Assembly: GCA_000165345.1 (NCBI GenBank) | Contig: CM000435.1 | Span: forward strand, 1,214,459 to 1,278,458 | Reading direction: 5' to 3' | Length of the DNA stretch: 64,000 bases | Shown: positions 2,395 to 26,808 of the stretch, piece by piece | Position numbering within the stretch: the stretch's first letter is position 1 | Layout: each line of letters begins with the position of its first letter | Notes under the pieces: generated by a model | What the model was told of the DNA's origin: nothing | Databases searched by the model: none | The model's input: only the letters and a program-made list of their open reading frames with translations | Program-made: the position numbers and the translations under genes

Positions 2395-3525
2395 TTACTT
2401 GACAAAAAGAGAAATTGCTCTAATAATTTCTAAAGAGAGTGCAATACTTTGATCAAATGTATATTTTGATGAAATATTGCTAATATATCTGAGAATCTTG
2501 ACCACTCCATTTCTGGTATAATCAAAAATTTGTTTGAAGTGGATTTCTATATTAACAATAGGTCTTGCGAGTAGATCTATAAGATTATGACTAGGATTCA
2601 ATAATTCCATTGGCCAAGGGAAAGGCTTGCTATAGCTTGAAACTAAAACCCCATTTACAATTAAGTAGCCATCTGTTGTTAATGGAGCATACCTTCCCAC
2701 ATACTCGTAATTTTTTTGATTGCTGTTTACATTAGAAATTATCGAGACTTGTGTTACCCACCCAACTCGCTCTTTTGAATAGATAATTACTGAGTCACCA
2801 ACCCTAATATCCTTTGCTTGGATTGAAGTAAGTTTCTTTTTTTTCTCAAGTTGAGGAGTGACTTCAATTCCAATAGCTTTTTCAATTTGACTAGGATAAT
2901 AACAATTTCCTTCGTGTGGTTTTTCTCCAAGGTATTGTATGAATATTAGATGATTCGGAGAAAGAACCAGAGGTTTCTCCATCCCTAAATATTCTACTTG
3001 AATCCATTCATCATCCAAGTATATATTTTTATCTTTATGTAACATTATTTCAACTTTGCTGTACTTAAATTTCATTGTGTTAAGATCTCTAATTAAAACA
3101 TACTCTCCAATTCTTAAATCTTCCAACTTTATTTCTCCCCTTTCTCTAGTGATTACTAAGCTATTTCCTGGGAAACACAAATTATTTGATTGACTCTGAG
3201 CCCCACAATTTGGATTATAAGGATAATCATCCTCATCAAGTTCATTAGACAAGTAACCAATATTTATCAGTTGGCCTACACAGGAAGAGGGAAATGCTAA
3301 TGAAATGGCATTTGAAATAACATTCCCCCACCCAGACCTAAATCCGGTTCCTCCTGCTGACATTCCTGAAAATGTATCAAATATCGATTTGGTTCTAACT
3401 CGAATAAAACTTAGATTTGAATGAAATAAATCCACATTTTTGCGAGATTCTTTATTAAACCAGAATAATTCAACAAGTATAGTTAACCAGAGAAAGCAAA
3501 TAATTTTTATATTATTAACTTTCAT
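2395..3525 (-). CDS. Secreted Hint (Hedgehog/intein-type autoprocessing) domain protein
   Basis: 376-aa ORF with a hydrophobic N-terminal signal (MKVNNIKIICFLWLTILVELFWF). Hint block A is CFPGNSLVITRERGEIKLEDLRIGEYVLIRD (Cys nucleophile), block B is SPNHLIFI (the T/SxxH motif), and the C-terminal block is TTDGYLIVNGVLVSSY (Hedgehog has TxxGTIVVNxVLASCY). Confidence 0.7.
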   Translation of the reverse strand: MKVNNIKIICFLWLTILVELFWFNKESRKNVDLFHSNLSFIRVRTKSIFDTFSGMSAGGTGFRSGWGNVISNAISLAFPSSCVGQLINIGYLSNELDEDDYPYNPNCGAQSQSNNLCFPGNSLVITRERGEIKLEDLRIGEYVLIRDLNTMKFKYSKVEIMLHKDKNIYLDDEWIQVEYLGMEKPLVLSPNHLIFIQYLGEKPHEGNCYYPSQIEKAIGIEVTPQLEKKKKLTSIQAKDIRVGDSVIIYSKERVGWVTQVSIISNVNSNQKNYEYVGRYAPLTTDGYLIVNGVLVSSYSKPFPWPMELLNPSHNLIDLLARPIVNIEIHFKQIFDYTRNGVVKILRYISNISSKYTFDQSIALSLEIIRAISLFVK

Positions 3526-11635: not shown

Positions 11636-12083
11636 TTTTTTTTAAAAGCTCTTTTATATTAATATTATTTAAAATATTTTCATTTAACTAGAGATCTTAA
11701 TTCGCTTAGTTCATATAGCATGGTACTTTACGTTACGTATCTACGTGTTATACCAATATTGTTCATAACTAACAGTTACCTGCAAAATAATCTTAATTAA
11801 AAGAAATTTAAATTGAAAATATTTAAGAAAAACAAATATTATATCTAAAATCACTTTTAAAAAGATAATAGTAAGTCGATATTCACTTTTATCGCAACCT
11901 AATACAAACATTAAACTCCACTTCAAAATGATAAGTTCTAAAAATGTAGGCTATATATATTAATGCTTTAAATTTCAAAAATCCTATGTAATATAGTTGA
12001 AAATCTGAATAGATTTGGATAAGATCTTTTATCAAAACTTGAATCAATTTTTCAAATGCTTATTTTTGAACTGACTACAATAG

Positions 12084-12126
12084 TGCATGCAAGGCAGCGC
12101 CAAATCACACGAACGCTGTTGGCGCC
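12084..12126. promoter_or_regulatory. TGCATGCA box plus paired E2F-like boxes (GCGCCAAAT ... TTGGCGCC)
   Basis: TGCATGCA at 12084-12091, GCGCCAAAT at 12097-12105 and TTGGCGCC at 12119-12126. Intergenic between the 11635 minus-strand gene and the small plus-strand ORF at 12319. Confidence 0.55.
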
Positions 12127-12318
12127 TATTTGAAACAAATTTGTGTGGTTTTTGATATAAATGTAAGATGAAAAAGAAAATGTATTTTTTTTCATTTTTT
12201 TTCGCAAGTTAAGGTAGGATTATCTTTTGTAATATTTTTAAATTACTTAGGTTGATAGAATGTTTCTCTTTTTTGTAACTTGACTAACTATTAGAGCATA
12301 AACTCTTTTAAAGTAGAA

Positions 12319-12543
12319 ATGTACAGAAATGAAATATTAAGTAATTTCTCCTCTAGATTGAGAATTATGTATCGCTACTACGAGAATAGATGGAATGAGC
12401 TTATATACAAACAAAATGATGATTTGGTAATGATTCTAAAAGAATATAACTTGAAAATAAAACGTGTAGCAAACAACCAAGGAAAAGGGATAGTTAAAAA
12501 AATAATGTTTTGTGAGCCTGATATAAAAAGGAATATAATTTAA
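12319..12543 (+). CDS. Possible small protein (74 aa), unassigned
   Basis: Clean ATG ORF about 190 nt downstream of a paired E2F box (12097-12126) in an otherwise empty 650-nt intergenic gap. No homology recognised. Confidence 0.25.
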   Translation: MYRNEILSNFSSRLRIMYRYYENRWNELIYKQNDDLVMILKEYNLKIKRVANNQGKGIVKKIMFCEPDIKRNII

Positions 12544-12689
12544 ATAAACTTGATTCTACAGAAAGAGCGTTTTCTATCATCAAGTACAATTTTCTAAAGT
12601 TGGGAAAAGCAATACATAATTTAAAATAACTTGGGTGTTGGAAATAAATAGTATTCAAGAATTGAATAAAAATAATCCAAAACCTTTAT

Positions 12690-12986
12690 TTAAGAATCTG
12701 AAATCTTTTGCCTCTTATATACTTGTTGGTCTTTCTCAAAGTTTTGAGTCAAATCTTCATATCCCTCTCCTACCATTCCAATACAATCGCCACGTAAAAC
12801 AAGAGACTCCATACTTACAGTTTCTACTTTGTTCAGATCTTTATTATATATCTTTTCAAAGCAATTTTGTAATACTATATTTGTTAGCTGATCGAACCCT
12901 ACCAAATTCCCAACATATACTTTGTTATCAACTGTCAATACGCTCACAGTCTTGTTGATAAACTGTTCTAATGTAGAACTATTCAT
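12690..12986 (-). CDS. LSM8: Sm-like protein LSm8 (U6 snRNA-associated)
   Basis: 98 aa. LEQFINKTVSVLTVDNKVYVGNLVGFDQLTNIVL...VETVSMESLVLRGDCIGMVGE matches human LSm8 LENYINRTVAVITSDGRMIVGTLKGFDQTINLIL...VEQVVLGLYIVRGDNVAVIGE. Confidence 0.8.
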   Translation of the reverse strand: MNSSTLEQFINKTVSVLTVDNKVYVGNLVGFDQLTNIVLQNCFEKIYNKDLNKVETVSMESLVLRGDCIGMVGEGYEDLTQNFEKDQQVYKRQKISDS

Positions 12987-13314
12987 CTGCTAATTCTAAA
13001 AGTTGGTAAAAAGTATGCAAATAATTAATAAGGACCAATATAAATATATATATTTATATAGATCAGTTTGCCAATGTATTTTGGAATCCTAATTTTTTTT
13101 AAACCTTGAAAGTAACTGGAATAATTGAAACAGTCAGTTCAAAAATAGAAAATCCTAAGGCATTGTCTAGCCACGTATTTAAGATGAATTCTTATTTAAT
13201 ATATTGTTAACAAATAAATTTCCTTGAAAAATAATTTTAAAATAATTTTTCTGGTCTCATTCTACCGACATCAATGGACCCTCATCTTGATACCGGTTTT
13301 TGACTATGAGTGCA

Positions 13315-13325
13315 TTTTGGCGGGC
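13315..13325. promoter_or_regulatory. E2F-like box TTTTGGCGGGC
   Basis: Intergenic between divergent LSm8 (minus, ATG 12986) and the 13613 plus-strand gene. Confidence 0.5.
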
Positions 13326-13612
13326 TTCGGGAATAATTTATTTATTAAGCTGATGAAAAAATTAGTATACAAATAATTTAGATTACTGTGAGTTTGAAAG
13401 AAAATTTTCGGTATTATTTGTTCTCACTGGAAAGAAGATACAATCTCTTGAAGGTATAAAGTAAAAGTCCCTTATATTCGTATTAATAATAAGTGGCTCA
13501 TAAAGCCATTAATAATAAATTTAAAAATACGAAATTTATGTGAGAATATAAGTAATAAACCTTTAAAGTGAGGGAGAAAGAGGTAGGAGTTTATCATATT
13601 GAGTACAAAACC

Positions 13613-15633: not shown

Positions 15634-16809
15634 CTATTCATTTCTGTTAATTTTAATAGAGGAAATAGTTTTATATACCTGTTCTTCATTACTTATGACT
15701 CCTATTTCTTGAATTCCAGATAATTCATTAAGCTGAATTTCAGAGATATATCCAGGACCAAAGCTTTTTTTTGAGTATGCTTTCACAAGACTACTAGAAT
15801 TAAATGTTAATTTCTGTTTTTCACTTTTATTTCCGTATTTTGTATTGATAAAGGTTACATGTGGGTTATAATCCTGTACTATAGAATCTTTTAGATTTTG
15901 TGATTTGTTACTAATCTCTGAATTAGAATCAGATATTGTTAAATTAACCCCATATTTTATCAGTATCTCACAAAGTTTAATCCAAAGTCGTTTAATCATT
16001 GCAATTTTATGATTTTCAGATATTTTTGCATATACAACTCTAGAATTATAAGGAGATCCAAAGTACCCTAATCCATGTAACTCCACAGGAAATCCCTTTT
16101 CAGAAGATGATTCTTCCAAAATGTCTCGAAACTCTTGAGTTTCTTTTAATTCGAATAATGCATTCTCACACTGTAAAAGTTCTTGAGGTGTTTCTGCTCG
16201 AACTAACCCCAAAGTTATGTGCAATTTCTTCTCACCAATAAAAAATGTCGGTTTAATTTCTCCGTACTCTGCAGATTCATTCACCACTTTTTTTAAAGCT
16301 TTGAATTCCTTGAATAGATTCAAAGAGTGCTGATTAAATGATAAACTGAAAAAGTGTGTTGGAGTTTGATTTACTTTGATATTTTGATCTTTTTCCTCCA
16401 AATAATCCACAAATTCCAAATGATCAAAATTTGAGCCAAGCTTAGTAGCTTCTTCAGATTCTTCGCTTTCAGAATTTGAGAAATTACTATCTTCCTTAAT
16501 AACTTGCACTTCGCTTGTAGGCTTAAATGAAAGTCTTTTCAACAAACTTGCTGGAATCTGACTCAAGTCCACATACTCACTCACCATCCTCCCCCTTTCT
16601 TTATCCCCTGACCTCTGAAAGATGTTGTCTCGTATTTCAACAGCTTTTACTGGCGGGAATAAAATCATCTCATCTAACTTTTCGATTTCATTTGAATGAA
16701 AATGACTACCCTGGGGGGAATTATGATCATTATAAGATCCCTCTGCTCCCGTAACTCCGCTTTCTTCGTTCAGTTGTTTTTTAGATTCCTTAATTTTTTT
16801 TGAAGCCAT
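15634..16809 (-). CDS. 2H phosphoesterase family protein (AKAP7/ASCC1/LigT-like)
   Basis: 391 aa. Two HxT/S motifs are spaced about 115 aa apart: KKLHITLGLVRAE and NPHVTFINTKY. This is the signature of the 2H cyclic phosphodiesterase/RNA ligase-like fold. Confidence 0.55.
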   Translation of the reverse strand: MASKKIKESKKQLNEESGVTGAEGSYNDHNSPQGSHFHSNEIEKLDEMILFPPVKAVEIRDNIFQRSGDKERGRMVSEYVDLSQIPASLLKRLSFKPTSEVQVIKEDSNFSNSESEESEEATKLGSNFDHLEFVDYLEEKDQNIKVNQTPTHFFSLSFNQHSLNLFKEFKALKKVVNESAEYGEIKPTFFIGEKKLHITLGLVRAETPQELLQCENALFELKETQEFRDILEESSSEKGFPVELHGLGYFGSPYNSRVVYAKISENHKIAMIKRLWIKLCEILIKYGVNLTISDSNSEISNKSQNLKDSIVQDYNPHVTFINTKYGNKSEKQKLTFNSSSLVKAYSKKSFGPGYISEIQLNELSGIQEIGVISNEEQVYKTISSIKINRNE

Positions 16810-16881: not shown

Positions 16882-16905
16882 AGCGCCAACTAATGGCGCC
16901 GTTTG
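16882..16905. promoter_or_regulatory. Paired E2F-like boxes AGCGCCAAC-N3-TGGCGCCGTTT in the divergent 2H-phosphoesterase / CtIP promoter
   Basis: Two GGCGCC-type cores about 70 nt from ATG 16809 (minus) and about 260 nt from ATG 17165 (plus). GCATGC also occurs at 17096-17101. Confidence 0.6.
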
Positions 16906-17164
16906 TCGATCTAATTTACAGCCAAAATTATTTAAAGGGGTGGGCTTAATAATATTCTGAATTTACTTAAGAATAGAAACGGGTATAATTTGACTTGGAA
17001 AATAGCAAGAGGTTGCAGATGTTTTATATTTTTTGTGTGAGCATTTTCATTCGGAAAATACACTCGTATTAAGTAAATAGTATTAATATATCGATCGCAT
17101 GCTGGTAGTTACCAGGAGCTAAACAGTAAAATAAAAATAAGATAATACTTGTTTTAATGAAACC

Positions 17165-17965
17165 ATGGATCAAATCATTGACGATGATGAGTACAATTCA
17201 ATTTTCCCACTTGAGAAAATTGCTTCTCATTTGAATATTTCCTTAAAATTCCTAGAAAATGCTCAAATTCAGTGGATGAATGAAAAAGAATCACTCCTTC
17301 GTGAAATTGAGAGACTAAGAATGGAAAATAGAACTCTAAGAATGGAAGTTAGAAGTAGTGAAAATATTGAAAGGAATTCTGTCTCAAATACTCCAAATAA
17401 CAACAGAATTAAAAGTTATTATTTAATAAACAATGACTCTGGTCAGATTATTCCTATCCCTCCAAATCCAGTAAATCAAGTAGTTGGAAGAAGCTGCAGT
17501 AGTTCAAACAATATTAAAAGAGTAAACGATGTTCTTGAGATTCAAAATATTACCGAAAGAAATTCGAATGCTATTCCAAATAGAAATTCGATTTCTGCAT
17601 CGAGAAGCATCCAAAATGATCAGATTTCTCCAGCTACAAGTTCACAAAACTGTCGAGTGAGACATATACAACTTGAAGACGAAAATAGCGACCATGAACC
17701 ATTAGAGGAAAAGAAAAAAGCTATTAAGTATAGAGAAGTTGGAAAAAGTATTGGCAAAAAAGAACAAAGAAAGAATCTTGAAGCATTCGAGTGTACCGAG
17801 TGTTCTAAGTTTTACAAAGCTATTAATAATAATAGAACATCAAATAGCCAATCAATGTGTAAGCATCTAAAGCAAAGCCTTCTTCTTCAGAATTCAGGAA
17901 GGCATAGGTTCAAACATCCTCCAACTAAATCTCCCCCAGGGTATTGGGATTTGGATGAAATTTGA
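17165..17965 (+). CDS. CtIP/Sae2/Ctp1-family DNA end-resection factor
   Basis: 266 aa with an N-terminal coiled coil (LLREIERLRMENRTLRMEV). The C-terminus FECTECSKFY...SGRHRFKHPPTKSPPGYWDLDEI matches the CtIP/Sae2 signature (CKECEIYY...[22 protein letters not shown]). Confidence 0.75.
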   Translation: MDQIIDDDEYNSIFPLEKIASHLNISLKFLENAQIQWMNEKESLLREIERLRMENRTLRMEVRSSENIERNSVSNTPNNNRIKSYYLINNDSGQIIPIPPNPVNQVVGRSCSSSNNIKRVNDVLEIQNITERNSNAIPNRNSISASRSIQNDQISPATSSQNCRVRHIQLEDENSDHEPLEEKKKAIKYREVGKSIGKKEQRKNLEAFECTECSKFYKAINNNRTSNSQSMCKHLKQSLLLQNSGRHRFKHPPTKSPPGYWDLDEI

Positions 17966-18056: not shown

Positions 18057-19190
18057 TTATCCGGCATTAGTAAACGGTAAATCTTTTCCATTAGGTATTA
18101 AGTTAGAACCAGAATCGGGATCAGCTTGCAGTACAAAAACGGCCCAATCTCTTAAGATGTGGTTTATTTCTTTCAAGAAGGGTGACTTACATTGTAAAGG
18201 AGTACAATTTGTAGAATGCACCGCTACAACGAGAGAGCATGCTGGCTCTTTAAAAAATTGTGCCTTTTTCTCCACGTACTGGAGAAGTGGAGCAGTTGTA
18301 GCTTGATTATTACCTATAAGTTGCCCAAGATTTCCAGAAATAATTATTTCTTCTTCTGTTTCTTTACCAAATACATTACCATAGTTTCCCATATATACCC
18401 CCGATAAAGGACCAAATTCCAATTCTTTTTCTAAACCAGGCTCAAACATTTGGGTCGCTAATGTTCCTCCGAATGCCATTTCTTGGAGTCTTCTAAGCAT
18501 TATATTGTTGTTATTACCGATATCATCCCATTTCCTTTTACCCACTCCAATCTCAGATTCATCATCTTTTAATCCTTTGGAATCTCCACAAATTCCTTTA
18601 TCTTTGATACAATTCTTTGAACTGTTTTCAAATTCGTTAGTTAAAAACTCAACATTATTTTCCATATCAATTCCCATACCTCTCATTTGAACAGCTTGGA
18701 TGTCTGCTTGACTTTTCTTCACATAACGAGAAGAGGAAGTGAACAAATTGTTTGAAATAGTGTCTTGACCTCTTGAACTAGTGTCATTAAAGTTGATTGG
18801 AAACTCTTGATCATTCTTATTTTCAGAAATTTCGTTTAAAGTTTCAAAGATATCTTCAACTACTTCATCTGACACCACATCATTCTCATCAAATGTTCCA
18901 GAAATAATTTTGTATGTCTCATCTTCAGGAATTTCTTCTCCAAACTCATATTTTTCGAGTGCTTTAGGAGGAAAAATAACGTTGAAGCCCTTTGGACACC
19001 AAATTCTGCCTCTTGTATAATTAACAATATTACAAATCATAGTTACTCTTTGATAAAAAGCAAAGTTTGAGCCAATATATGAAGGTTGGGAATTATCTGG
19101 ACAAATTGCTATTGGTGGAATAACCTGAAATGCTTTGCATCCTTCAATTGAATTAACAAATCCTGCTGGACAAATTCCTCCATCCAATTC
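18057..19190 (-). CDS. COWP-like Cys-motif protein, exon 3 of 3
   Basis: Continues ELDGGICPAGFVNSIEGCKAF...ICPDNSQPSY...WCPKGFNVIFPP, then an acidic low-complexity region and a Cys-containing C-terminus. The ORF-track Met is really an internal TTG codon. Confidence 0.55.
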   Translation of the reverse strand, partial: ELDGGICPAGFVNSIEGCKAFQVIPPIAICPDNSQPSYIGSNFAFYQRVTMICNIVNYTRGRIWCPKGFNVIFPPKALEKYEFGEEIPEDETYKIISGTFDENDVVSDEVVEDIFETLNEISENKNDQEFPINFNDTSSRGQDTISNNLFTSSSRYVKKSQADIQAVQMRGMGIDMENNVEFLTNEFENSSKNCIKDKGICGDSKGLKDDESEIGVGKRKWDDIGNNNNIMLRRLQEMAFGGTLATQMFEPGLEKELEFGPLSGVYMGNYGNVFGKETEEEIIISGNLGQLIGNNQATTAPLLQYVEKKAQFFKEPACSLVVAVHSTNCTPLQCKSPFLKEINHILRDWAVFVLQADPDSGSNLIPNGKDLPFTNAG

Positions 19191-19247: not shown

Positions 19248-19408
19248 AGAAAATGGAATAACACGATACCCTTCGCATGCCCATGATATAATATCTGGAG
19301 TAACTTCTCCTGTATTTGAATTAGTTTCTGATTCGTACTTAAGTCTAAGTTTCATTCCTGCTGGACATGCTAAAGAAGGTCCTACTTCTCTTTTTTCCTG
19401 GCAAATTC
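19248..19408 (-). CDS. COWP-like Cys-motif protein, exon 2 of 3
   Basis: Intron 1 is 19409-19493 (85 nt, GTAATT...AAAATAG) and intron 2 is 19191-19247 (57 nt, GTAAGT...TTTTATAG). Phases are consistent (1 then 0). The exon encodes ICQEKREVGPSLACPAGMKLRL...WACEGYRVIPFS. Confidence 0.5.
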
Positions 19409-19493
19409 CTATTTTTAATAAATAAAAAATATATTATATTTAATATAAGTAAATTTATTACTGTAAGCCAAAAAGAATATTTTGCAAAATTAC

Positions 19494-19953
19494 CTGGATA
19501 TAAAGATGACTGTTTAGGAATAGTGCCTGACGCTGAGCTAACAAATCTTCCCAGATCACCAAAACACTCTGTTCTTGGTCCCAAAGAAACCTCAGCCATA
19601 CAAAGTGGCCCCCAAGGAGTCCAGCCTTTTGGGCATCTGACCTGAACAGGTCTAATTAATTCAGGTACCCTATTATCTACTCCTTTTTCTTGCTTTCTAG
19701 TTAAAATGGGTTCAAATTCAGGTTTTTTTTCCGTCAATTTATGAAGCTCAAGAATCTCCGTAATATTTGCATCATATCTGGGAAACTTGTCTTTCCAAGG
19801 AAGGGGCTTGTAATCTGACTTTAATTTTTGAGGTCCATACATTTCAGCTGGGTTTGTAGATCCTGAAAAGTCATGCCTTTCTTGTGCCACATTTCTTTGC
19901 GATAATACATATCTAAAACATAAAACAAGCAGTAATAATATCAAAAAATTCAT
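19494..19953 (-). CDS. Secreted Cys-motif protein with CPxG(F/W/M) repeats (COWP-like), exon 1 of 3
   Basis: Signal peptide MNFLILLLLVLCFRYVLSQ. The exon ends CCAG|GTAATT in phase 1. It contains RCPKGWTPWGPLC. Confidence 0.55.
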
Positions 19954-23286: not shown

Positions 23287-24858
23287 TCAAGTAGGAACAA
23301 ATCCAACTAAGTTTACTATTTTTAATTTATTACTTGAATCAAATGATGCATTTAGGCAAATATTTCCCTGAATAAAACGAACATATAATAATAAATTATC
23401 GATAGTGAAATTAGGGTTAGAACATTCAGAAGATCCTTCATTGTTTTCAATAGACAGTATTCTCTCAGCTACTTGCCTGGTTAAACATACATCCTCCAAT
23501 AGTAATTCATCCCACGGCTTTGGTAAAGGTATTGGATAATGAATACCTAGTTCAAGGAGCATTTCATCACTATTTACACTCCTTCTAGAGTTAATTACAA
23601 CAGCTTCAACCCAAATGACTAATTCATCTTCATTTTGTGGGTGATCAATTTCATTTAAACTTTCAGAATTAGTTTGTAATACTGATGGAGCTTCCGATAA
23701 ATTAAATTCATGATTATTATTTATATCAGGATAATAGCTATTTAAACCCTCGAAATTTTCATCTTGATATTCTAAATCCTCTCTAATTTCAATATCAGCA
23801 TAATTTTCAAAGTCAAAATAACCTTGTAAATCGTCTACAATACCGACATCCAATATTTCATTTTCCTTTTCTTCAATGGACTTAGGAAAAATCTCAATAA
23901 CTGAATTAGAATCAGAATTAGAGTTATCTGGTTCTATAAAGCATTCATCTTTGATTTCTAATTTCTCTAATAATAACTCGTCTTCAATCAAAGAGTTGCT
24001 TAAAAAAGAATCTGAATTAACTTGATTCAGTGCTTTTTGGTTTGAAATAACTTTATAGTTCTCTTCAAATATCTGATTATCTTTTTTTTCCTTTAAGCCT
24101 GAATTTGTAATCACAAAGTTTGAGTATGACCTGATATCTAAGATCCCCTCTGGGGTTTTAATTGGTTTCTTAACTAAGTTTTCTGACAAAATAGAGGAGC
24201 TGGAATTGCTTGTAGACTTTTCTCCTATGTTTTCATTGAGCTTTTTAACTCGATCATGAACACTTTGTTCAGCATCTTTATGCATGATAAAAGTAAGCAT
24301 TCCAGGTAATAAAAGCATGACTCCTCTTTTGATTTCAGGCTCACCTGACAAAAGAACCAATATATGGGCGTTGTTATCTCGCTGATTTGAATCTCCATTC
24401 TTTTCAATATGTTCTGTATATTTGCACCAAAAGCTTATGAATTCATCTAATTCAGGCATGTACCTATATTCCATTGCAGAGCATACATTTGTGCCATCTG
24501 TTAAAATGAGTTTCATCATCCTATTCTTAGAAGGAGTAGTTATTGATACTTGCTCCATCTTAGATAAATCTGAGTTAAAATAGAATCGATTTCTAGACTT
24601 AGCCTTGGAAACATCCTCAGCCTCTATTAATTGCAATAAATGAACTCCTTTTAAGTTAATTTTATGCAAAGAATGAATATCCAAAGGTAGACTTCCTTTC
24701 TTAATAATTTTTGATAGGTCCACTGAAAGCAAAAGTTTTAAAAGTTTGTCAGAATAATCATCATAATCCTCTTTAAATGGTTCTAATAGCTTTTCAACCT
24801 CCTCACAAACTTGAATTTGCAAATCCTTCAAAATGTGTTCAATCAAATTTTCACTCAT
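23287..24858 (-). CDS. RMI1-like protein (DUF1767 N-terminal helical domain plus OB fold); long acidic C-terminus
   Basis: The track ORF opens at TTG 24870 and the first ATG is 24858 (MSENLIEHILKDL...). The OB-fold region MMKLILTDGTNVCSAMEYRYMPEL...ILVLLSGEPEIKRGVMLLLPGMLTFI resembles the RMI1 N-OB (LKLQLTDGSQSVRAVEYRPIP...G.LLL). TDRD3-type proteins have the same layout, so this is tentative. Confidence 0.45.
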   Translation of the reverse strand: MSENLIEHILKDLQIQVCEEVEKLLEPFKEDYDDYSDKLLKLLLSVDLSKIIKKGSLPLDIHSLHKINLKGVHLLQLIEAEDVSKAKSRNRFYFNSDLSKMEQVSITTPSKNRMMKLILTDGTNVCSAMEYRYMPELDEFISFWCKYTEHIEKNGDSNQRDNNAHILVLLSGEPEIKRGVMLLLPGMLTFIMHKDAEQSVHDRVKKLNENIGEKSTSNSSSSILSENLVKKPIKTPEGILDIRSYSNFVITNSGLKEKKDNQIFEENYKVISNQKALNQVNSDSFLSNSLIEDELLLEKLEIKDECFIEPDNSNSDSNSVIEIFPKSIEEKENEILDVGIVDDLQGYFDFENYADIEIREDLEYQDENFEGLNSYYPDINNNHEFNLSEAPSVLQTNSESLNEIDHPQNEDELVIWVEAVVINSRRSVNSDEMLLELGIHYPIPLPKPWDELLLEDVCLTRQVAERILSIENNEGSSECSNPNFTIDNLLLYVRFIQGNICLNASFDSSNKLKIVNLVGFVPT

Positions 24859-25004
24859 CAATCTATTCAATGTTCAAATCTCATTTAACAGGAAGAAAAT
24901 GTATTTTGCACATTATAAGTTCATTTGAGCTACTCACTATTATTTCAAACTAATTATTTTTTTCTTTTACATTTGGATCAAATATTGTTTGGTACCGTAC
25001 ATAA

Positions 25005-25015
25005 TTTGGCGGGAA
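25005..25015. promoter_or_regulatory. Canonical E2F box TTTGGCGGGAA in the divergent RMI1-like / hypothetical promoter
   Basis: About 150 nt from ATG 24858 (minus) and about 50 nt from ATG 25063 (plus). Confidence 0.6.
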
Positions 25016-25062
25016 TTGCAATTCCAAAATAATCAACAAAAAAATAAAAGAAAGTTAAGATC

Positions 25063-26808
25063 ATGTTTAAAAAGCTTAATATAAAAGAAAAGGGCTGTGA
25101 TGATGAATCTTTACTCTCTGACAGGTTTCATATTCAGAAACTTCTTTTAGATTTTGATAGGGAAGCATCCATTCATTTAGATGATGACAATACCGAAGAA
25201 CTGCTTATTCAACTTTCTAAGATTTATTCAGAATATGTTATTCCCTTAACTGCAGTTACAATAAATGAAGACCTTGTAAAAAGTTGGAGTTTGTTTAATA
25301 TTTATTTAAAATTAGAATTGTGTGGTGGCTGTATTGAACACTTCATATTAGCATTTCAAATGATTTCTAGTATTATTACCACAAATCCAAATTCTGTATA
25401 TTTATTATTTACTCCATTAAATGAAAGGACTGATATATGCCCAATAAAGTACATATGTTTGATGTTGAGTAATTCTTTTTATGGCTTAGATCCCAAATCA
25501 CCAGAATTTGAAAATTTGTTAACTAGTATTAGTTTTTTACAAACTGATTATATTGGAAACGGAATTGAAGATGAATTTATTAGAAATTTGGAAAATGGCC
25601 AAAAAGATAATTTGAAAGCTATTAAGAATGAAGAAATTGAAAATAAGAAATTCAAATTAGAAGAATTGGCAGTAAATTTAATTATTGAATCTCTAGATTT
25701 ACTTGAGCTAATCCTAAAGTACATAGATGATTTATCATTGATGTATGAAGCAGATTTTAAGCAAACCGAAAATTTTATTATTTGCATTAAAGCTTTAATA
25801 GATACTTACTCCCCTATATTTCAAACAATTCTCTCATCTAAAATGATGTTAAAATTACATGGGAAGGAAACTGATAAGATTAAGGAAACACGAATTATTG
25901 TTTTGAGGATTTTTGAGAGGCTGGCTTTGGTTTTATTTAATACAGGCCTACTTCCTTACTTTCTTGAATCCCTTAATAAAGAAATAGTTAGTAATCAAGG
26001 TACTGTTTTTGAAAGTTTGATGGACATTCTATCTCCAGATTTTCCGAATTGGTACACATTTAAGTACAAAGGGCTGGAAGAATTAAAAAATTTCATTTTT
26101 TCTTTACAACTTCAATTTACTGGATTCTTGTTTTTAAAAACCATATGTAACACTGTAGAAGAGCCATCTTCCGCCGTTAATATGCTCTTAAATGTAAGAA
26201 AGTATCATATACCTTTTGATGAACTCCCTGACTTTATCTCACAATCCAATTATTGGTTTAGCGACATTAAAGACAAAATAAACTTTGATAAAGAAAACAC
26301 TATTTTTGGAAATTTCTCGGAATATGGGAATTCTTTACCAAAATATGTAAACAGTATTTTCTCCAACTTATTCTATAGGGTGGCTGCTGTAGCGTTTCAT
26401 AATGGGCTCAAACTCCAACAGAATATGATCGATTTTTCTCAAATCACTGAAACATTTCATGAAGGTATTATTGGAAGTGAAACTCTGGCTCTAAAAAGAC
26501 TTTACTCTCTTAAGACTGATCTTTTTATTGTTAATATCCAAATTATTACTTTTATAATTTCTTCAATTGTTTCAATTTCTGCAGAAGTTGTTTCCGATGA
26601 TGAATTTATAAAGTCAAATCCTACAGCAGAAGTTATTTCTATTCTTCACTTGTTTTTAGTATGGATCTGCGAGTTCGTATTTGATTACAAATCTAAAATT
26701 CCAATATTCTATCATATTCTTGAGGAAATTAATATTATAAAAATTAGGCTTCCTATACTATATAATGCCTTTAATAATAAAGATTCTACAAATGATAATA
26801 AGATATAG
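25063..26808 (+). CDS. Hypothetical protein
   Basis: 581-aa ATG ORF immediately downstream of a canonical E2F box (TTTGGCGGGAA, 25005-25015). Helical and Leu/Ile-rich. No family recognised. Confidence 0.5.
   Translation: MFKKLNIKEKGCDDESLLSDRFHIQKLLLDFDREASIHLDDDNTEELLIQLSKIYSEYVIPLTAVTINEDLVKSWSLFNIYLKLELCGGCIEHFILAFQMISSIITTNPNSVYLLFTPLNERTDICPIKYICLMLSNSFYGLDPKSPEFENLLTSISFLQTDYIGNGIEDEFIRNLENGQKDNLKAIKNEEIENKKFKLEELAVNLIIESLDLLELILKYIDDLSLMYEADFKQTENFIICIKALIDTYSPIFQTILSSKMMLKLHGKETDKIKETRIIVLRIFERLALVLFNTGLLPYFLESLNKEIVSNQGTVFESLMDILSPDFPNWYTFKYKGLEELKNFIFSLQLQFTGFLFLKTICNTVEEPSSAVNMLLNVRKYHIPFDELPDFISQSNYWFSDIKDKINFDKENTIFGNFSEYGNSLPKYVNSIFSNLFYRVAAVAFHNGLKLQQNMIDFSQITETFHEGIIGSETLALKRLYSLKTDLFIVNIQIITFIISSIVSISAEVVSDDEFIKSNPTAEVISILHLFLVWICEFVFDYKSKIPIFYHILEEINIIKIRLPILYNAFNNKDSTNDNKI

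What the first reader, a model, noticed from the sequence alone, without database searches (positions are those of the whole stretch)
17165..17965. CtIP/Sae2 end-resection factor recognisable by its C-terminal signature, behind a double E2F promoter
CtIP/Sae2/Ctp1 orthologues are notoriously hard to find in divergent protists. This 266-aa protein has the diagnostic C-terminus: CxxC...FY (FECTECSKFY), RHRF, then PPTKSPPGYWD (human [22 protein letters not shown]). It also has an N-terminal coiled coil like the CtIP tetramerisation helix. The shared promoter region (16882-16905) carries two GGCGCC E2F-like cores. This parallels the E2F control of CtIP in animals and suggests S/G2 cell-cycle expression. 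A second recombination-related gene, the RMI1-like OB-fold protein at 23287-24858, also sits behind a canonical TTTGGCGGGAA box.
Basis: partly seen in the sequence, partly recalled or inferred. Interest (0 to 1): 0.55.

Follow-up and report, generated by a model that had tools for sequence, protein, structure and literature searches.

The report
Cryptosporidium CtIP/Sae2 gene, already annotated
This 266-residue Cryptosporidium parvum protein (cgd7_5380) is a real but already annotated member of the CtIP/Sae2/Ctp1 DNA-end-resection family; the GC boxes upstream are a conserved but generic promoter element, and published data show the transcript peaking late in culture rather than with S phase.

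Summary
The ORF at 17165-17965 (+) is real. It is identical to C. parvum Iowa II EAK90492.1 / XP_628681.1 / UniProt Q5CXP9, already named 'CtIP type zinc knuckle (C2H2)'. Primer mapping identifies it as cgd7_5380.

Family membership holds:
- Pfam PF08573 scores 28.2 bits (cutoff 19.8).
- A profile of the Cryptosporidium C-terminus finds 245 proteins, and all 40 sampled are PF08573 members.
- RHRFKHPPTKSPPGYW aligns without gaps to primate CtIP [16 protein letters not shown]. This puts invariant S256-P257 on the T847 CDK site.
- The N-terminus is a confident helix with a seven-heptad leucine ladder.

The promoter reading is only partly right. There is one exact GGCGCC; the other box is AGCGCC. 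The pair is conserved in 7 of 9 species. However, E2F-like boxes occur in all 8 divergent intergenic regions of the window. This pair also lies 73-86 bp from the neighbouring gene's ATG and 270-283 bp from the CtIP ATG.

Published qRT-PCR shows no transcript at 2 h, a minor 6 h peak and a maximum at 48-72 h. That tracks DMC1 (rho 0.75), not the divergent neighbour (0.11) or the RMI1-like gene (-0.21).

Verdict: a correct call of an already annotated gene. S/G2 expression driven by E2F is not supported.

The parts
17165..17965 (+). Complete single-exon gene cgd7_5380 (266 aa plus stop): the Cryptosporidium parvum CtIP/Sae2/Ctp1 orthologue
   Evidence: ORF. Identical to EAK90492.1 / XP_628681.1 / Q5CXP9. 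The Mauzy 2012 cgd7_5380 primers map to 17688-17709 and 17844-17868. Orthologues occur in at least 12 Cryptosporidium species or genotypes.
17210..17377 (+). N-terminal long helix (residues 16-71) with a seven-heptad leucine ladder; candidate oligomerisation coiled coil
   Evidence: AF2 helix 16-71, pLDDT about 90-96 over residues 21-60. The d positions are L16, L23, L30, W37, L44, L51 and L58, with N55 at an a position, conserved in 9 species; 0.23% of shuffles match. No sequence match to the CtIP or Ctp1 tetramerisation domains.
17624..17683 (+). Genus-conserved central block I154-E173 (ISPxxxSQxCRVRHIQLEDE) with invariant S155-P156 and S160-Q161; candidate phospho-regulatory motif inside the disordered linker
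   Evidence: Invariant columns S155, P156, S160, Q161, C163, V165, R166, I168 and Q169 in alignment A1. C. andersoni keeps it as SPNRTNSQTCKVRRIQL. Function is inferred only.
17726..17956 (+). C-terminal SAE2/CtIP domain (residues 188-264)
   Evidence: Pfam PF08573, 28.2 bits (cutoff 19.8), profile positions 39-104 of 110. The profile of this region finds 245 proteins at E <= 1e-3, and 40 of 40 sampled are PF08573.
17792..17803 (+). CxxC motif (C210-T-E-C213)
   Evidence: Both Cys are invariant in 9 Cryptosporidium sequences and in 40 distant family members.
17858..17866 (+). C232-K-H234; with the CxxC, a possible Cys3-His zinc-ligand set
   Evidence: Invariant in the genus. 'CxH' appears in the majority consensus of distant members. 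Metal binding was not tested.
17900..17908 (+). RHR motif (R246-H247-R248)
   Evidence: H and the second R are invariant, and the first R nearly so, in 40 family members. It aligns to RHR of primate CtIP.
17930..17935 (+). S256-P257: minimal CDK consensus at the position of human CtIP T847-P848
   Evidence: Gapless alignment of RHRFKHPPTKSPPGYW with [16 protein letters not shown]. Invariant in the genus. Numbering was checked by counting back from residue 897 of the validated human C-terminal peptide.
16882..16900 (.). Pair of E2F-like GC boxes (AGCGCC 16882-16887 and GGCGCC 16895-16900) in the 355-bp divergent intergenic region shared with cgd7_5370
   Evidence: Conserved as a pair 12-14 bp apart in 7 of 9 species, with switching between GGCGCC, AGCGCC, GGCGGG and CCCGCC. 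The pair is 73-86 bp from the cgd7_5370 ATG and 270-283 bp from the CtIP ATG.
17033..17041 (+). TTGTGTGAG block, the most conserved element of the CtIP-proximal half of the intergenic region (about 125-130 bp upstream of the ATG)
   Evidence: TGTGTG columns are invariant in all 9 species. It resembles the GTGTGT / AP2_2 (GCACAC) motifs listed in PMC12246861. Binding is inferred only.
17097..17106 (+). GCATGCTGGT block (AP2_1-like GCATGC / ACATGY core) about 60-68 bp upstream of the CtIP ATG
   Evidence: Conserved as (G/A)CATGCTGGT in the six or seven closest species. AP2_1-like motifs BGCATGCAH and ACATGY are described in PMC3734150. Binding is inferred only.

Best explanation
The ORF encodes the Cryptosporidium parvum orthologue (cgd7_5380) of the CtIP/Sae2/Ctp1 cofactor of the Mre11-Rad50 nuclease, in a minimal form of 266 residues, similar in size to yeast Ctp1. 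Shown here: (i) it has the family's C-terminal domain with CxxC, RHR and a Ser-Pro at the exact position of the CDK site T847 of human CtIP; (ii) it has an N-terminal leucine-zipper-type helix followed by a long disordered linker, which is the family's usual layout; (iii) it is conserved and syntenic across the genus; (iv) it is transcribed at low level with a maximum at 48-72 h in culture. Inferred from what is established for CtIP, Sae2 and Ctp1: the helix oligomerises the protein. CDK phosphorylation of S256 then lets the C-terminus engage Rad50/Mre11 and switch on the Mre11 endonuclease at blocked DNA ends, starting 5' resection for homologous recombination. This would matter in a parasite reported to lack classical NHEJ (PMC6635534). 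The late expression peak, parallel to DMC1, suggests the main demand is during gametogenesis and meiotic break processing, the original Sae2/Com1 role, with a smaller demand in asexual replication. The upstream pair of E2F-like boxes is a conserved element of a bidirectional promoter. It is the generic promoter motif of this organism, so it does not by itself indicate cell-cycle control of this gene.
For: PF08573 is above the curated cutoff. The identical sequence already carries a CtIP name, and the orthologues are PF08573-positive. The exhaustive HMMER search with the C-terminal profile gave 245 hits, mostly at extreme C-termini, and 40 of 40 sampled are PF08573, best E = 8.3e-17. Invariant C, C, H, R, P and W columns are shared with 40 distant members. 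There is a gapless residue-level match to primate CtIP, including S256-P257 on T847-P848. AF2 predicts a helix plus disorder, and the heptad ladder is conserved. Synteny holds in 8 other genomes. For expression, primers map inside the ORF; the late-to-early ratio is 3-22 fold in all four time courses and rho with DMC1 is 0.75. Mauzy et al. report that DNA-repair and meiosis genes peak at 48-72 h. NHEJ loss in Cryptosporidium is reported in PMC6635534.
Against: There is no biochemical or genetic evidence for this protein. The Pfam score is modest (28 bits), and the C. parvum match covers only profile positions 39-104. The N-terminal helix shows no detectable sequence homology to the CtIP_N or Ctp1 tetramerisation domains, so oligomeric state is unknown. 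The protein ends 5 residues after the conserved Trp and lacks the FPSTQ-type ATM/ATR site that Rhytidocystis and vertebrates keep. Expression values are very low (about 1e-8 of 18S) and come from asynchronous bulk culture. rho = 0.75 rests on 7 points (p = 0.05). cgd7_5380 is absent from the female-versus-asexual differential lists held for Tandel 2019, although some of those files are truncated. Mre11, Rad50 and CDK partners were not examined because they lie outside the window.
Confidence: 0.85

Rival explanations
1. One reading: the two GC boxes are E2F/DP sites that drive S/G2-phase transcription of the CtIP gene, paralleling E2F control of CtIP in animals.
For: The box pair is conserved in 7 of 9 species, with switching among E2F-type variants, which argues for selection on function. 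Its distance to the CtIP ATG is fairly constant (261-299 bp). Cryptosporidium retains E2F/DP factors. cgd7_5380 has a minor 6 h peak and a 24 h rise, resembling the cyclic ORC2/ORC5 pattern described by Mauzy et al..
Against: E2F-like boxes occur in 8 of 8 divergent promoters in the window, whatever the gene function (ribosomal L24, Rab GGTase, Vps16, Prp18 and others). The literature finds the motif upstream of clusters peaking at every time point. The boxes are three to four times closer to the neighbour's ATG. The CtIP transcript is near its minimum at 12 h and maximal at 48-72 h. It is uncorrelated with the promoter-sharing neighbour (rho 0.11) and with the E2F-box-bearing RMI1-like gene (rho -0.21). 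In C. parvum neither box matches the full 8-mer consensus [A/T][C/G]GCGC[G/C][A/T].
Confidence: 0.2
2. The E2F-like pair belongs functionally to the divergent neighbour cgd7_5370 (AKAP7/LigT-type 2H phosphoesterase). CtIP is driven by its own proximal, AP2-type elements (TTGTGTGAG at -125/-130 and GCATGCTGGT at -60/-68), giving late or sexual-stage expression.
For: The boxes are close to the cgd7_5370 ATG. cgd7_5370 peaks at 6 h and 24 h, as many E2F-associated clusters do, while cgd7_5380 peaks late. Two further blocks near the CtIP ATG are conserved, and TGTGTG is invariant in all nine species, including C. ryanae and C. xiaoi, where the E2F pair is degraded. AP2_1-like and GTGTGT motifs are documented binding sites of C. 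parvum ApiAP2 factors, several of them female-specific.
Against: No transcription start site or binding data were available. The conserved proximal blocks could instead be 5'UTR or core-promoter sequence. More than half of ATAC peaks in C. parvum are annotated as bidirectional promoters, so one E2F pair could serve both genes.
Confidence: 0.45
3. The protein is not a true CtIP relative but a small zinc-knuckle or C2H2-like nucleic-acid-binding protein that matches PF08573 by chance through its CxxC and a few basic residues.
For: The Pfam score is modest. There is a sub-threshold hit to FdhE_C, a Cys-rich domain (18.7 bits against a cutoff of 27). The C-terminal profile gives weak C2H2-like alignments to PDB chains (E = 1.5-2). 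The database name itself says 'zinc knuckle (C2H2)'.
Against: The match extends well beyond CxxC to RHR[FY], PP.[ST]PPG[FY]W and the KY.EV..K..R..L lead-in, in the correct order and spacing, at the extreme C-terminus. The reciprocal search retrieves only PF08573 proteins in the sample checked (40 of 40). The FdhE_C and PDB hits are below threshold.
Confidence: 0.03

Closest known systems
Schizosaccharomyces pombe Ctp1 and S. cerevisiae Sae2 (small fungal members of the CtIP family, Pfam PF08573)
   Same: Small size (266 aa; Ctp1 and Sae2 are about 300-350 aa, from my own knowledge). The same three-part layout: N-terminal oligomerisation-type helix, disordered linker and short conserved C-terminal domain. 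The CxxC and RHR motifs are as described for Ctp1, and an S/T-P sits at the CDK site position. Late, meiosis-associated expression fits the original Sae2/Com1 meiotic role (role from established knowledge).
   Different: There is no detectable sequence similarity in the N-terminal helix. The protein stops 5 residues after the conserved Trp. It has a genus-specific conserved central block with invariant SP and SQ. No clustered SXT (CK2/Nbs1-FHA type) motifs were looked for systematically.
Human CtIP / RBBP8
   Same: The C-terminal signature aligns without gaps: RHRF..(I/P)PP.(T/S)P..(F/Y)W, with S256-P257 on T847-P848.
   Different: CtIP is 897 aa, with BRCA1-, CtBP- and Rb-binding regions that have no counterpart here. 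The T859 'FPSTQ' ATR/ATM site and the 40-residue tail are absent. Pfam CtIP_N does not match. E2F control of the human gene has no demonstrated parallel here.
Cryptosporidium E2F-like promoter motifs (Oberstaller et al. 2013, motif 3 DTTGSCGCCH and motif 4 TTTGGCGGGAAV)
   Same: GGCGCC core. Location in a short divergent intergenic region. Paired arrangement like other promoters in this window: 3773/3786, 6612/6635, 12097/12121 and 41687/41694.
   Different: In C. parvum neither box matches the extended consensus, and one box has A in place of the first G. The downstream gene does not show an early-asexual or S-phase profile.

Membership tests
CtIP/Sae2/Ctp1 (Pfam PF08573 SAE2) | C-terminal SAE2/CtIP domain scoring above the Pfam gathering threshold | tested here: met
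   28.2 bits against a cutoff of 19.8, E = 4.1e-6, residues 188-264. The C. andersoni orthologue scores 32 bits.
CtIP/Sae2/Ctp1 (Pfam PF08573 SAE2) | Reciprocity: a profile built from this protein's C-terminus retrieves recognised family members and not other families | tested here: met
   245 hits at E <= 1e-3 among 1.84 billion representatives. All 40 sampled hits match PF08573, and no other family recurs.
CtIP/Sae2/Ctp1 (Pfam PF08573 SAE2) | Conserved CxxC and RHR motifs in the correct order and spacing | tested here: met
   C210/C213 and H247/R248 fall in columns that are invariant across 40 distant members.
CtIP/Sae2/Ctp1 (Pfam PF08573 SAE2) | S/T-P CDK site at the position of human T847 / yeast S267, followed by ..[FY]W | tested here: met
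   S256-P257 aligns without gaps to T847-P848 and is invariant in the genus. Actual phosphorylation cannot be tested with these tools.
CtIP/Sae2/Ctp1 (Pfam PF08573 SAE2) | N-terminal coiled-coil oligomerisation (tetramerisation) domain | tested here: inconclusive
   A confident helix at 16-71 and a conserved seven-heptad ladder support a coiled coil. There is no sequence match to CtIP_N or to the solved CtIP or Ctp1 N-terminal domains, and oligomeric state was not modelled.
CtIP/Sae2/Ctp1 (Pfam PF08573 SAE2) | Binds Mre11-Rad50(-Nbs1) and stimulates the Mre11 endonuclease; needed for resection and removal of meiotic Spo11 | not testable with these tools
   This needs biochemistry or genetics. 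The partner genes lie outside the window and were not searched.
E2F/DP-regulated cell-cycle promoter | Match to the E2F consensus and evolutionary conservation of the site | tested here: met
   One exact GGCGCC core plus one AGCGCC. The pair is conserved in 7 of 9 species and arises in 0.05% of shuffles. The extended 8- to 10-mer consensus is not matched exactly in C. parvum.
E2F/DP-regulated cell-cycle promoter | The motif is specific to replication, repair or cell-cycle genes rather than to promoters in general | tested here: not met
   8 of 8 divergent intergenic regions in the window carry such boxes, at 2.12 per kb intergenic against 0.115 per kb coding. The neighbouring genes have unrelated functions. 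The literature agrees.
E2F/DP-regulated cell-cycle promoter | The transcript peaks with S-phase genes | tested here: not met
   cgd7_5380 is at 2% of its maximum at 12 h, when histones and MCM10 peak according to Mauzy et al., and at 97-100% at 48-72 h. These are bulk, asynchronous data.
RMI1 (Pfam PF08585), side claim | N-terminal OB-fold domain above the Pfam gathering threshold | tested here: met
   ORF 23287-24858 (-), cgd7_5420: PF08585 at 31.3 bits against a cutoff of 23, E = 2e-7. Gene ID from primer mapping.

The most novel reading that the evidence does not exclude
Cryptosporidium's CtIP may be a stripped-down version of the family, consisting of a leucine zipper, one CDK site and no ATM/ATR tail. 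Its main job would be meiotic and gametogenic break processing, under stage-specific AP2-type control rather than E2F cell-cycle control. Its genus-conserved central SP/SQ block would be a lineage-specific regulatory module. In addition, the Cryptosporidium-derived profile detects C-terminal CtIP domains in other apicomplexans and alveolate-like sequences (Rhytidocystis P0027; unnamed 899- and 915-aa proteins P0026 and P0030). It could therefore help resolve the 'CtIP not detected' entries in Toxoplasma and Plasmodium repair inventories (PMC4853372).
Probability: 0.3. Interest if true: 0.35.

Novelty: already known. Interest (0 to 1): 0.15.

Why it matters
Cryptosporidium is reported to lack classical end joining (PMC6635534). 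Homologous recombination, and hence the resection step that CtIP licenses, would therefore be central both to parasite genome maintenance and to the homology-directed gene editing the field relies on. Confirming that the annotated CtIP gene has every sequence hallmark, including the CDK-site serine, gives a concrete handle for experiments: S256, the zipper and the central SP/SQ block. The identification itself adds nothing to existing databases. The useful corrections are negative ones. In this organism an upstream E2F box says almost nothing about cell-cycle regulation. The available expression data point to late or sexual-stage rather than S-phase expression.

Tried and rejected
(1) I searched the N-terminal profile (A4) against PDB sequences. 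Only generic coiled coils came back (BQLF2, APC, NudE-like), with no CtIP or Ctp1 tetramerisation domain. Pfam CtIP_N was also absent, so homology of the N-terminus could not be shown.
(2) I searched the C-terminal profile (A3) against the PDB. There were only sub-threshold C2H2-like hits, so no solved structure of this domain is detectable.
(3) I did not run a fold search. The AF2 model is confident only for a single helix (mean pLDDT 50.5), and any matches would be meaningless.
(4) I used the last word-indexed homology search with a broadened profile (A6) to obtain named apicomplexan members. It returned only 24 short, mostly unnamed fragments, all but one carrying a precomputed PF08573 hit, so it said nothing about distribution.
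(5) I looked for expression data in other sources. Product-name searches of the supplements failed. Walzer 2024, the single-cell atlas, is not held. The Tandel 2019 lists do not contain cgd7_5380, and some of those files are truncated.
(6) I rejected the FdhE_C sub-threshold Pfam hit (18.7 bits against a cutoff of 27) as a CxxC artefact.
(7) I searched the literature for a Cryptosporidium CtIP or Sae2 study and found none.
(8) A caveat on my intergenic classification: region 11636-13567 contains the small gene cgd7_5350 (LSM domain) on the minus strand, which I had not modelled. The 8-of-8 count is based on long ORFs only.
Full report
**What is there**

The window is Cryptosporidium parvum chromosome 7 sequence (32% G+C). 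An exact-sequence look-up shows it is identical to C. parvum Iowa II EAK90492.1 / XP_628681.1 / UniProt Q5CXP9. That entry is already named 'CtIP type zinc knuckle (C2H2)'. Near-identical entries exist for C. hominis and C. tyzzeri, and one cluster member is named 'DNA repair protein endonuclease SAE2/CtIP C-terminus family protein'.

I mapped the qRT-PCR primers published by Mauzy et al. 2012 (PMC3305300, Table S2) onto the window. This identifies the gene as cgd7_5380. Its divergent upstream neighbour (15634-16809, minus strand, an AKAP7/LigT-type 2H phosphoesterase) is cgd7_5370. The RMI1-like gene is cgd7_5420.

**Family membership**

Pfam PF08573 (SAE2/CtIP C-terminus) matches residues 188-264 at 28.2 bits against a curated cutoff of 19.8 (E = 4.1e-6).

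Nine further orthologues were found, from 46 to 99% identical, all with precomputed PF08573 hits. They are syntenic in all eight genomes fetched: 2H phosphoesterase (-), CtIP (+), a gene of about 580 aa (-), then a WD40 gene (+).

I built a profile from only the last 83 residues of the nine Cryptosporidium proteins (A3) and ran it exhaustively against 1.84 billion representative proteins:
- It found 245 proteins at E <= 1e-3, most matching profile positions 13-79 at their extreme C-terminus.
- All 40 sampled hits match PF08573, with a best E of 8.3e-17, and no other family recurs.
- The third hit is the C. andersoni / C. muris / C. serpentis orthologue. Another hit is from the apicomplexan Rhytidocystis.

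The consensus of the distant hits is KY.EVVRKK.ER..L.A.EC..C.KFY.A...C.H...SRHRY.Y.PP.TP.GFW. The Cys, Cys, His, Arg, Pro and Trp columns are invariant.

I validated a recalled human CtIP C-terminal peptide against primate and mammalian CtIP fragments (95-100% identity). I then aligned a primate fragment with the Cryptosporidium C-terminus. RHRFKHPPTKSPPGYW aligns without gaps to [16 protein letters not shown]. The invariant S256-P257 therefore sits exactly on T847-P848, the CDK site that licenses resection in human cells. That role comes from established knowledge (Huertas and Jackson 2009, cited in PMC4853372).

The Cryptosporidium proteins stop five residues after the conserved Trp. They lack the 'FPSTQ' ATM/ATR-type site that Rhytidocystis (WDMDFPPTQL) and vertebrates retain.

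**Architecture**

AlphaFold2, run with the nine-sequence alignment, gives one confident helix over residues 16-71 (pLDDT about 90-96 over residues 21-60). The rest is low-confidence and looks disordered (mean pLDDT 50.5).

The helix has an unbroken ladder at heptad d positions: L16, L23, L30, W37, L44, L51, L58. The a positions include L27, I48 and N55. The ladder is conserved in all nine species and arises in only 0.23% of composition-preserving shuffles. So the 'N-terminal coiled coil' is real.

Whether it is homologous to the CtIP or Ctp1 tetramerisation domain could not be shown. Pfam CtIP_N does not match, and a profile search of PDB sequences finds only generic coiled coils.

The linker contains a block conserved across the genus, ISPxxxSQxCRVRHIQLEDE (residues 154-173). 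It has invariant Ser-Pro and Ser-Gln, so it is a candidate regulatory phosphorylation module. That is an inference.

**The promoter**

Region 16882-16905 contains one exact GGCGCC (16895-16900) and one AGCGCC (16882-16887), not two GGCGCC.

Aligning the 333-418 bp intergenic regions of nine species shows that the pair is the best-conserved feature of the upstream half:
- It is present as two boxes 12-14 bp apart in seven species.
- Individual boxes switch among GGCGCC, AGCGCC, GGCGGG and CCCGCC, all of them E2F-type variants.
- It is degraded in C. ryanae and C. xiaoi.
- A pair within 30 bp arises in 0.05% of shuffles.

So the element is almost certainly functional.

First, the motif is generic. 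Using long-ORF gene models, E2F-like boxes occur in 8 of 8 divergent intergenic regions of the window, 0 of 8 convergent and 4 of 8 tandem ones. Their density is 2.12 per kb in intergenic DNA against 0.115 per kb in coding DNA, even though intergenic DNA has lower G+C. The flanking genes include ribosomal protein L24, Rab geranylgeranyltransferase alpha, a FACT subunit, Vps16 and Prp18. This agrees with three publications:
- Oberstaller et al. 2013 found E2F-like motifs over-represented in 161 expression clusters that peak at any of the seven time points.
- Xiao et al. 2025 found E2F to be the dominant motif in ATAC-seq peaks, more than half of which are bidirectional promoters.

Second, position. 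In every species the pair lies 54-110 bp from the neighbour's ATG and 261-299 bp from the CtIP ATG. The half of the spacer nearer CtIP has its own conserved blocks. TTGTGTGAG (17033-41) has TGTGTG invariant in all nine species. GCATGCTGGT (17097-106) is also conserved. Both resemble published ApiAP2 motifs.

Third, expression. The values below are 18S-normalised medians of four time courses from Mauzy 2012, Table S1.

| Time | cgd7_5380 | % of its maximum |
|---|---|---|
| 2 h | 0 | 0 |
| 6 h | 1.8e-8 | 38 |
| 12 h | 9e-10 | 2 |
| 24 h | 9e-9 | 19 |
| 36 h | 2.4e-8 | 50 |
| 48 h | 4.6e-8 | 97 |
| 72 h | 4.8e-8 | 100 |

- The 36-72 h mean exceeds the 2-24 h mean by 3- to 22-fold in each of the four time courses.
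- The promoter-sharing neighbour cgd7_5370 is about 30-fold more abundant and peaks at 6 h and 24 h (rho 0.11).
- The RMI1-like gene cgd7_5420 peaks at 6 h and declines late (rho -0.21).
- DMC1 (cgd7_1690) gives rho 0.75.
- Mauzy et al. state that histones and MCM10 peak at 12 h. They also state that the late cluster (little expression until 36 h, high at 48-72 h) is the one richest in DNA-repair and replication genes, and that meiosis genes peak at 48-72 h.

The available data therefore point to late, sexual-stage-associated expression with a minor early peak, not a simple S-phase pattern.

Three caveats apply. The cultures are asynchronous. The transcript is near the detection floor. cgd7_5380 is not in the female-versus-asexual lists held for Tandel 2019, some of which are truncated.

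**Side claim**

ORF 23287-24858 (minus strand) does match Pfam RMI1_N_C (31.3 bits, cutoff 23). TTTGGCGGGAA is at 25005-25015. It too lies in a 204-bp divergent spacer. It is 48 bp from the ATG of the plus-strand gene at 25063 and 147 bp from the RMI1-like ATG.

**Mechanism**

These steps are inferred from the family, not shown here. The zipper oligomerises the protein. CDK phosphorylation of S256 allows the C-terminal domain to engage Rad50/Mre11 and activate the Mre11 endonuclease at blocked ends, starting resection for homologous recombination. In a genus reported to lack classical NHEJ (PMC6635534), this pathway should be important. The expression profile suggests the greatest demand is during gametogenesis and meiosis.

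**Novelty and verdict**

The protein is correctly identified, but it is already annotated under that name in GenBank, UniProt and Pfam-based pipelines for many Cryptosporidium species. No paper in the searchable library studies it. A 2016 review lists CtIP as 'not detected' in Toxoplasma and reports similar gaps for Plasmodium. The family's representation in Apicomplexa is therefore under-appreciated rather than unknown. The abundance of the E2F motif is well documented. The finding is a sound re-discovery with an over-interpreted promoter, so interest is low.

Noticed in passing
window 18057-19187 (-) and 19345-19953 (-): These two ORFs carry separate IDs in C. parvum: primers place cgd7_5390 on the first, and gene order suggests cgd7_5400 for the second. 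In C. ubiquitum, chipmunk genotype I, C. canis and C. xiaoi they correspond to a single gene of 577-602 aa. Both are up-regulated in females with near-identical profiles in Tandel 2019, and cgd7_5390 rises from 12 h to 72 h in Mauzy 2012. This is probably one gene with an intron, or a split model, and it has no Pfam domain.
   Followed up: partly
window 3773/3786, 6612/6635, 12097/12121, 16883/16895, 41687/41694: E2F-like GC boxes recur as pairs 7-24 bp apart (five pairs; this one is 12-13 bp) in divergent intergenic regions. This suggests a common two-site architecture for bidirectional promoters in C. parvum.
   Followed up: partly
window 12776-12917 (-), inside the 1.9-kb gap 11636-13567: The Mauzy primers for cgd7_5350 (an 'LSM domain containing protein' in the Tandel 2019 tables) map here, although no ORF of at least 100 aa is present on that strand. 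This is probably a small, possibly intron-containing gene. It means my 'intergenic' classification of this stretch is imperfect.
   Followed up: no
window 25005-25015, spacer 24859-25062: The canonical TTTGGCGGGAA box credited to the RMI1-like gene is 48 bp from the ATG of the plus-strand gene at 25063 (581 aa, no Pfam hit) and 147 bp from the RMI1-like ATG. As with CtIP, it is unclear which gene it serves. The RMI1-like transcript peaks at 6 h.
   Followed up: partly
proteins P0026 (899 aa), P0030 (915 aa) and P0027 (Rhytidocystis, 1253 aa): These are large, G+C-rich proteins with a clear CtIP C-terminus (…AFECVGCKKFY…GRHRYQWAPPATPSGYWNIGFDTETQ). P0026 and P0030 come from unnamed metagenome or read-archive (SRA) assemblies. 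In Rhytidocystis a long insert (about 80 residues) separates the CxxC/CxH part from the RHR part. They may be coccidian-like or other alveolate orthologues, which bears on the 'CtIP not detected' entries for Toxoplasma.
   Followed up: partly
window 2395-3525 (-): This is a Hedgehog-type Hint-module protein (PF01079, 77 bits; cgd7_5290 in the Tandel tables). It is an unusual domain for an apicomplexan but is already annotated.
   Followed up: no
window 16908-16921: The block GATCTAATTTACAG immediately downstream of the E2F pair is conserved in seven species (TGATCTAATTTACAG consensus). It matches no motif named in the papers read. It could be a core-promoter or transcription-start element of the bidirectional promoter.
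   Followed up: no
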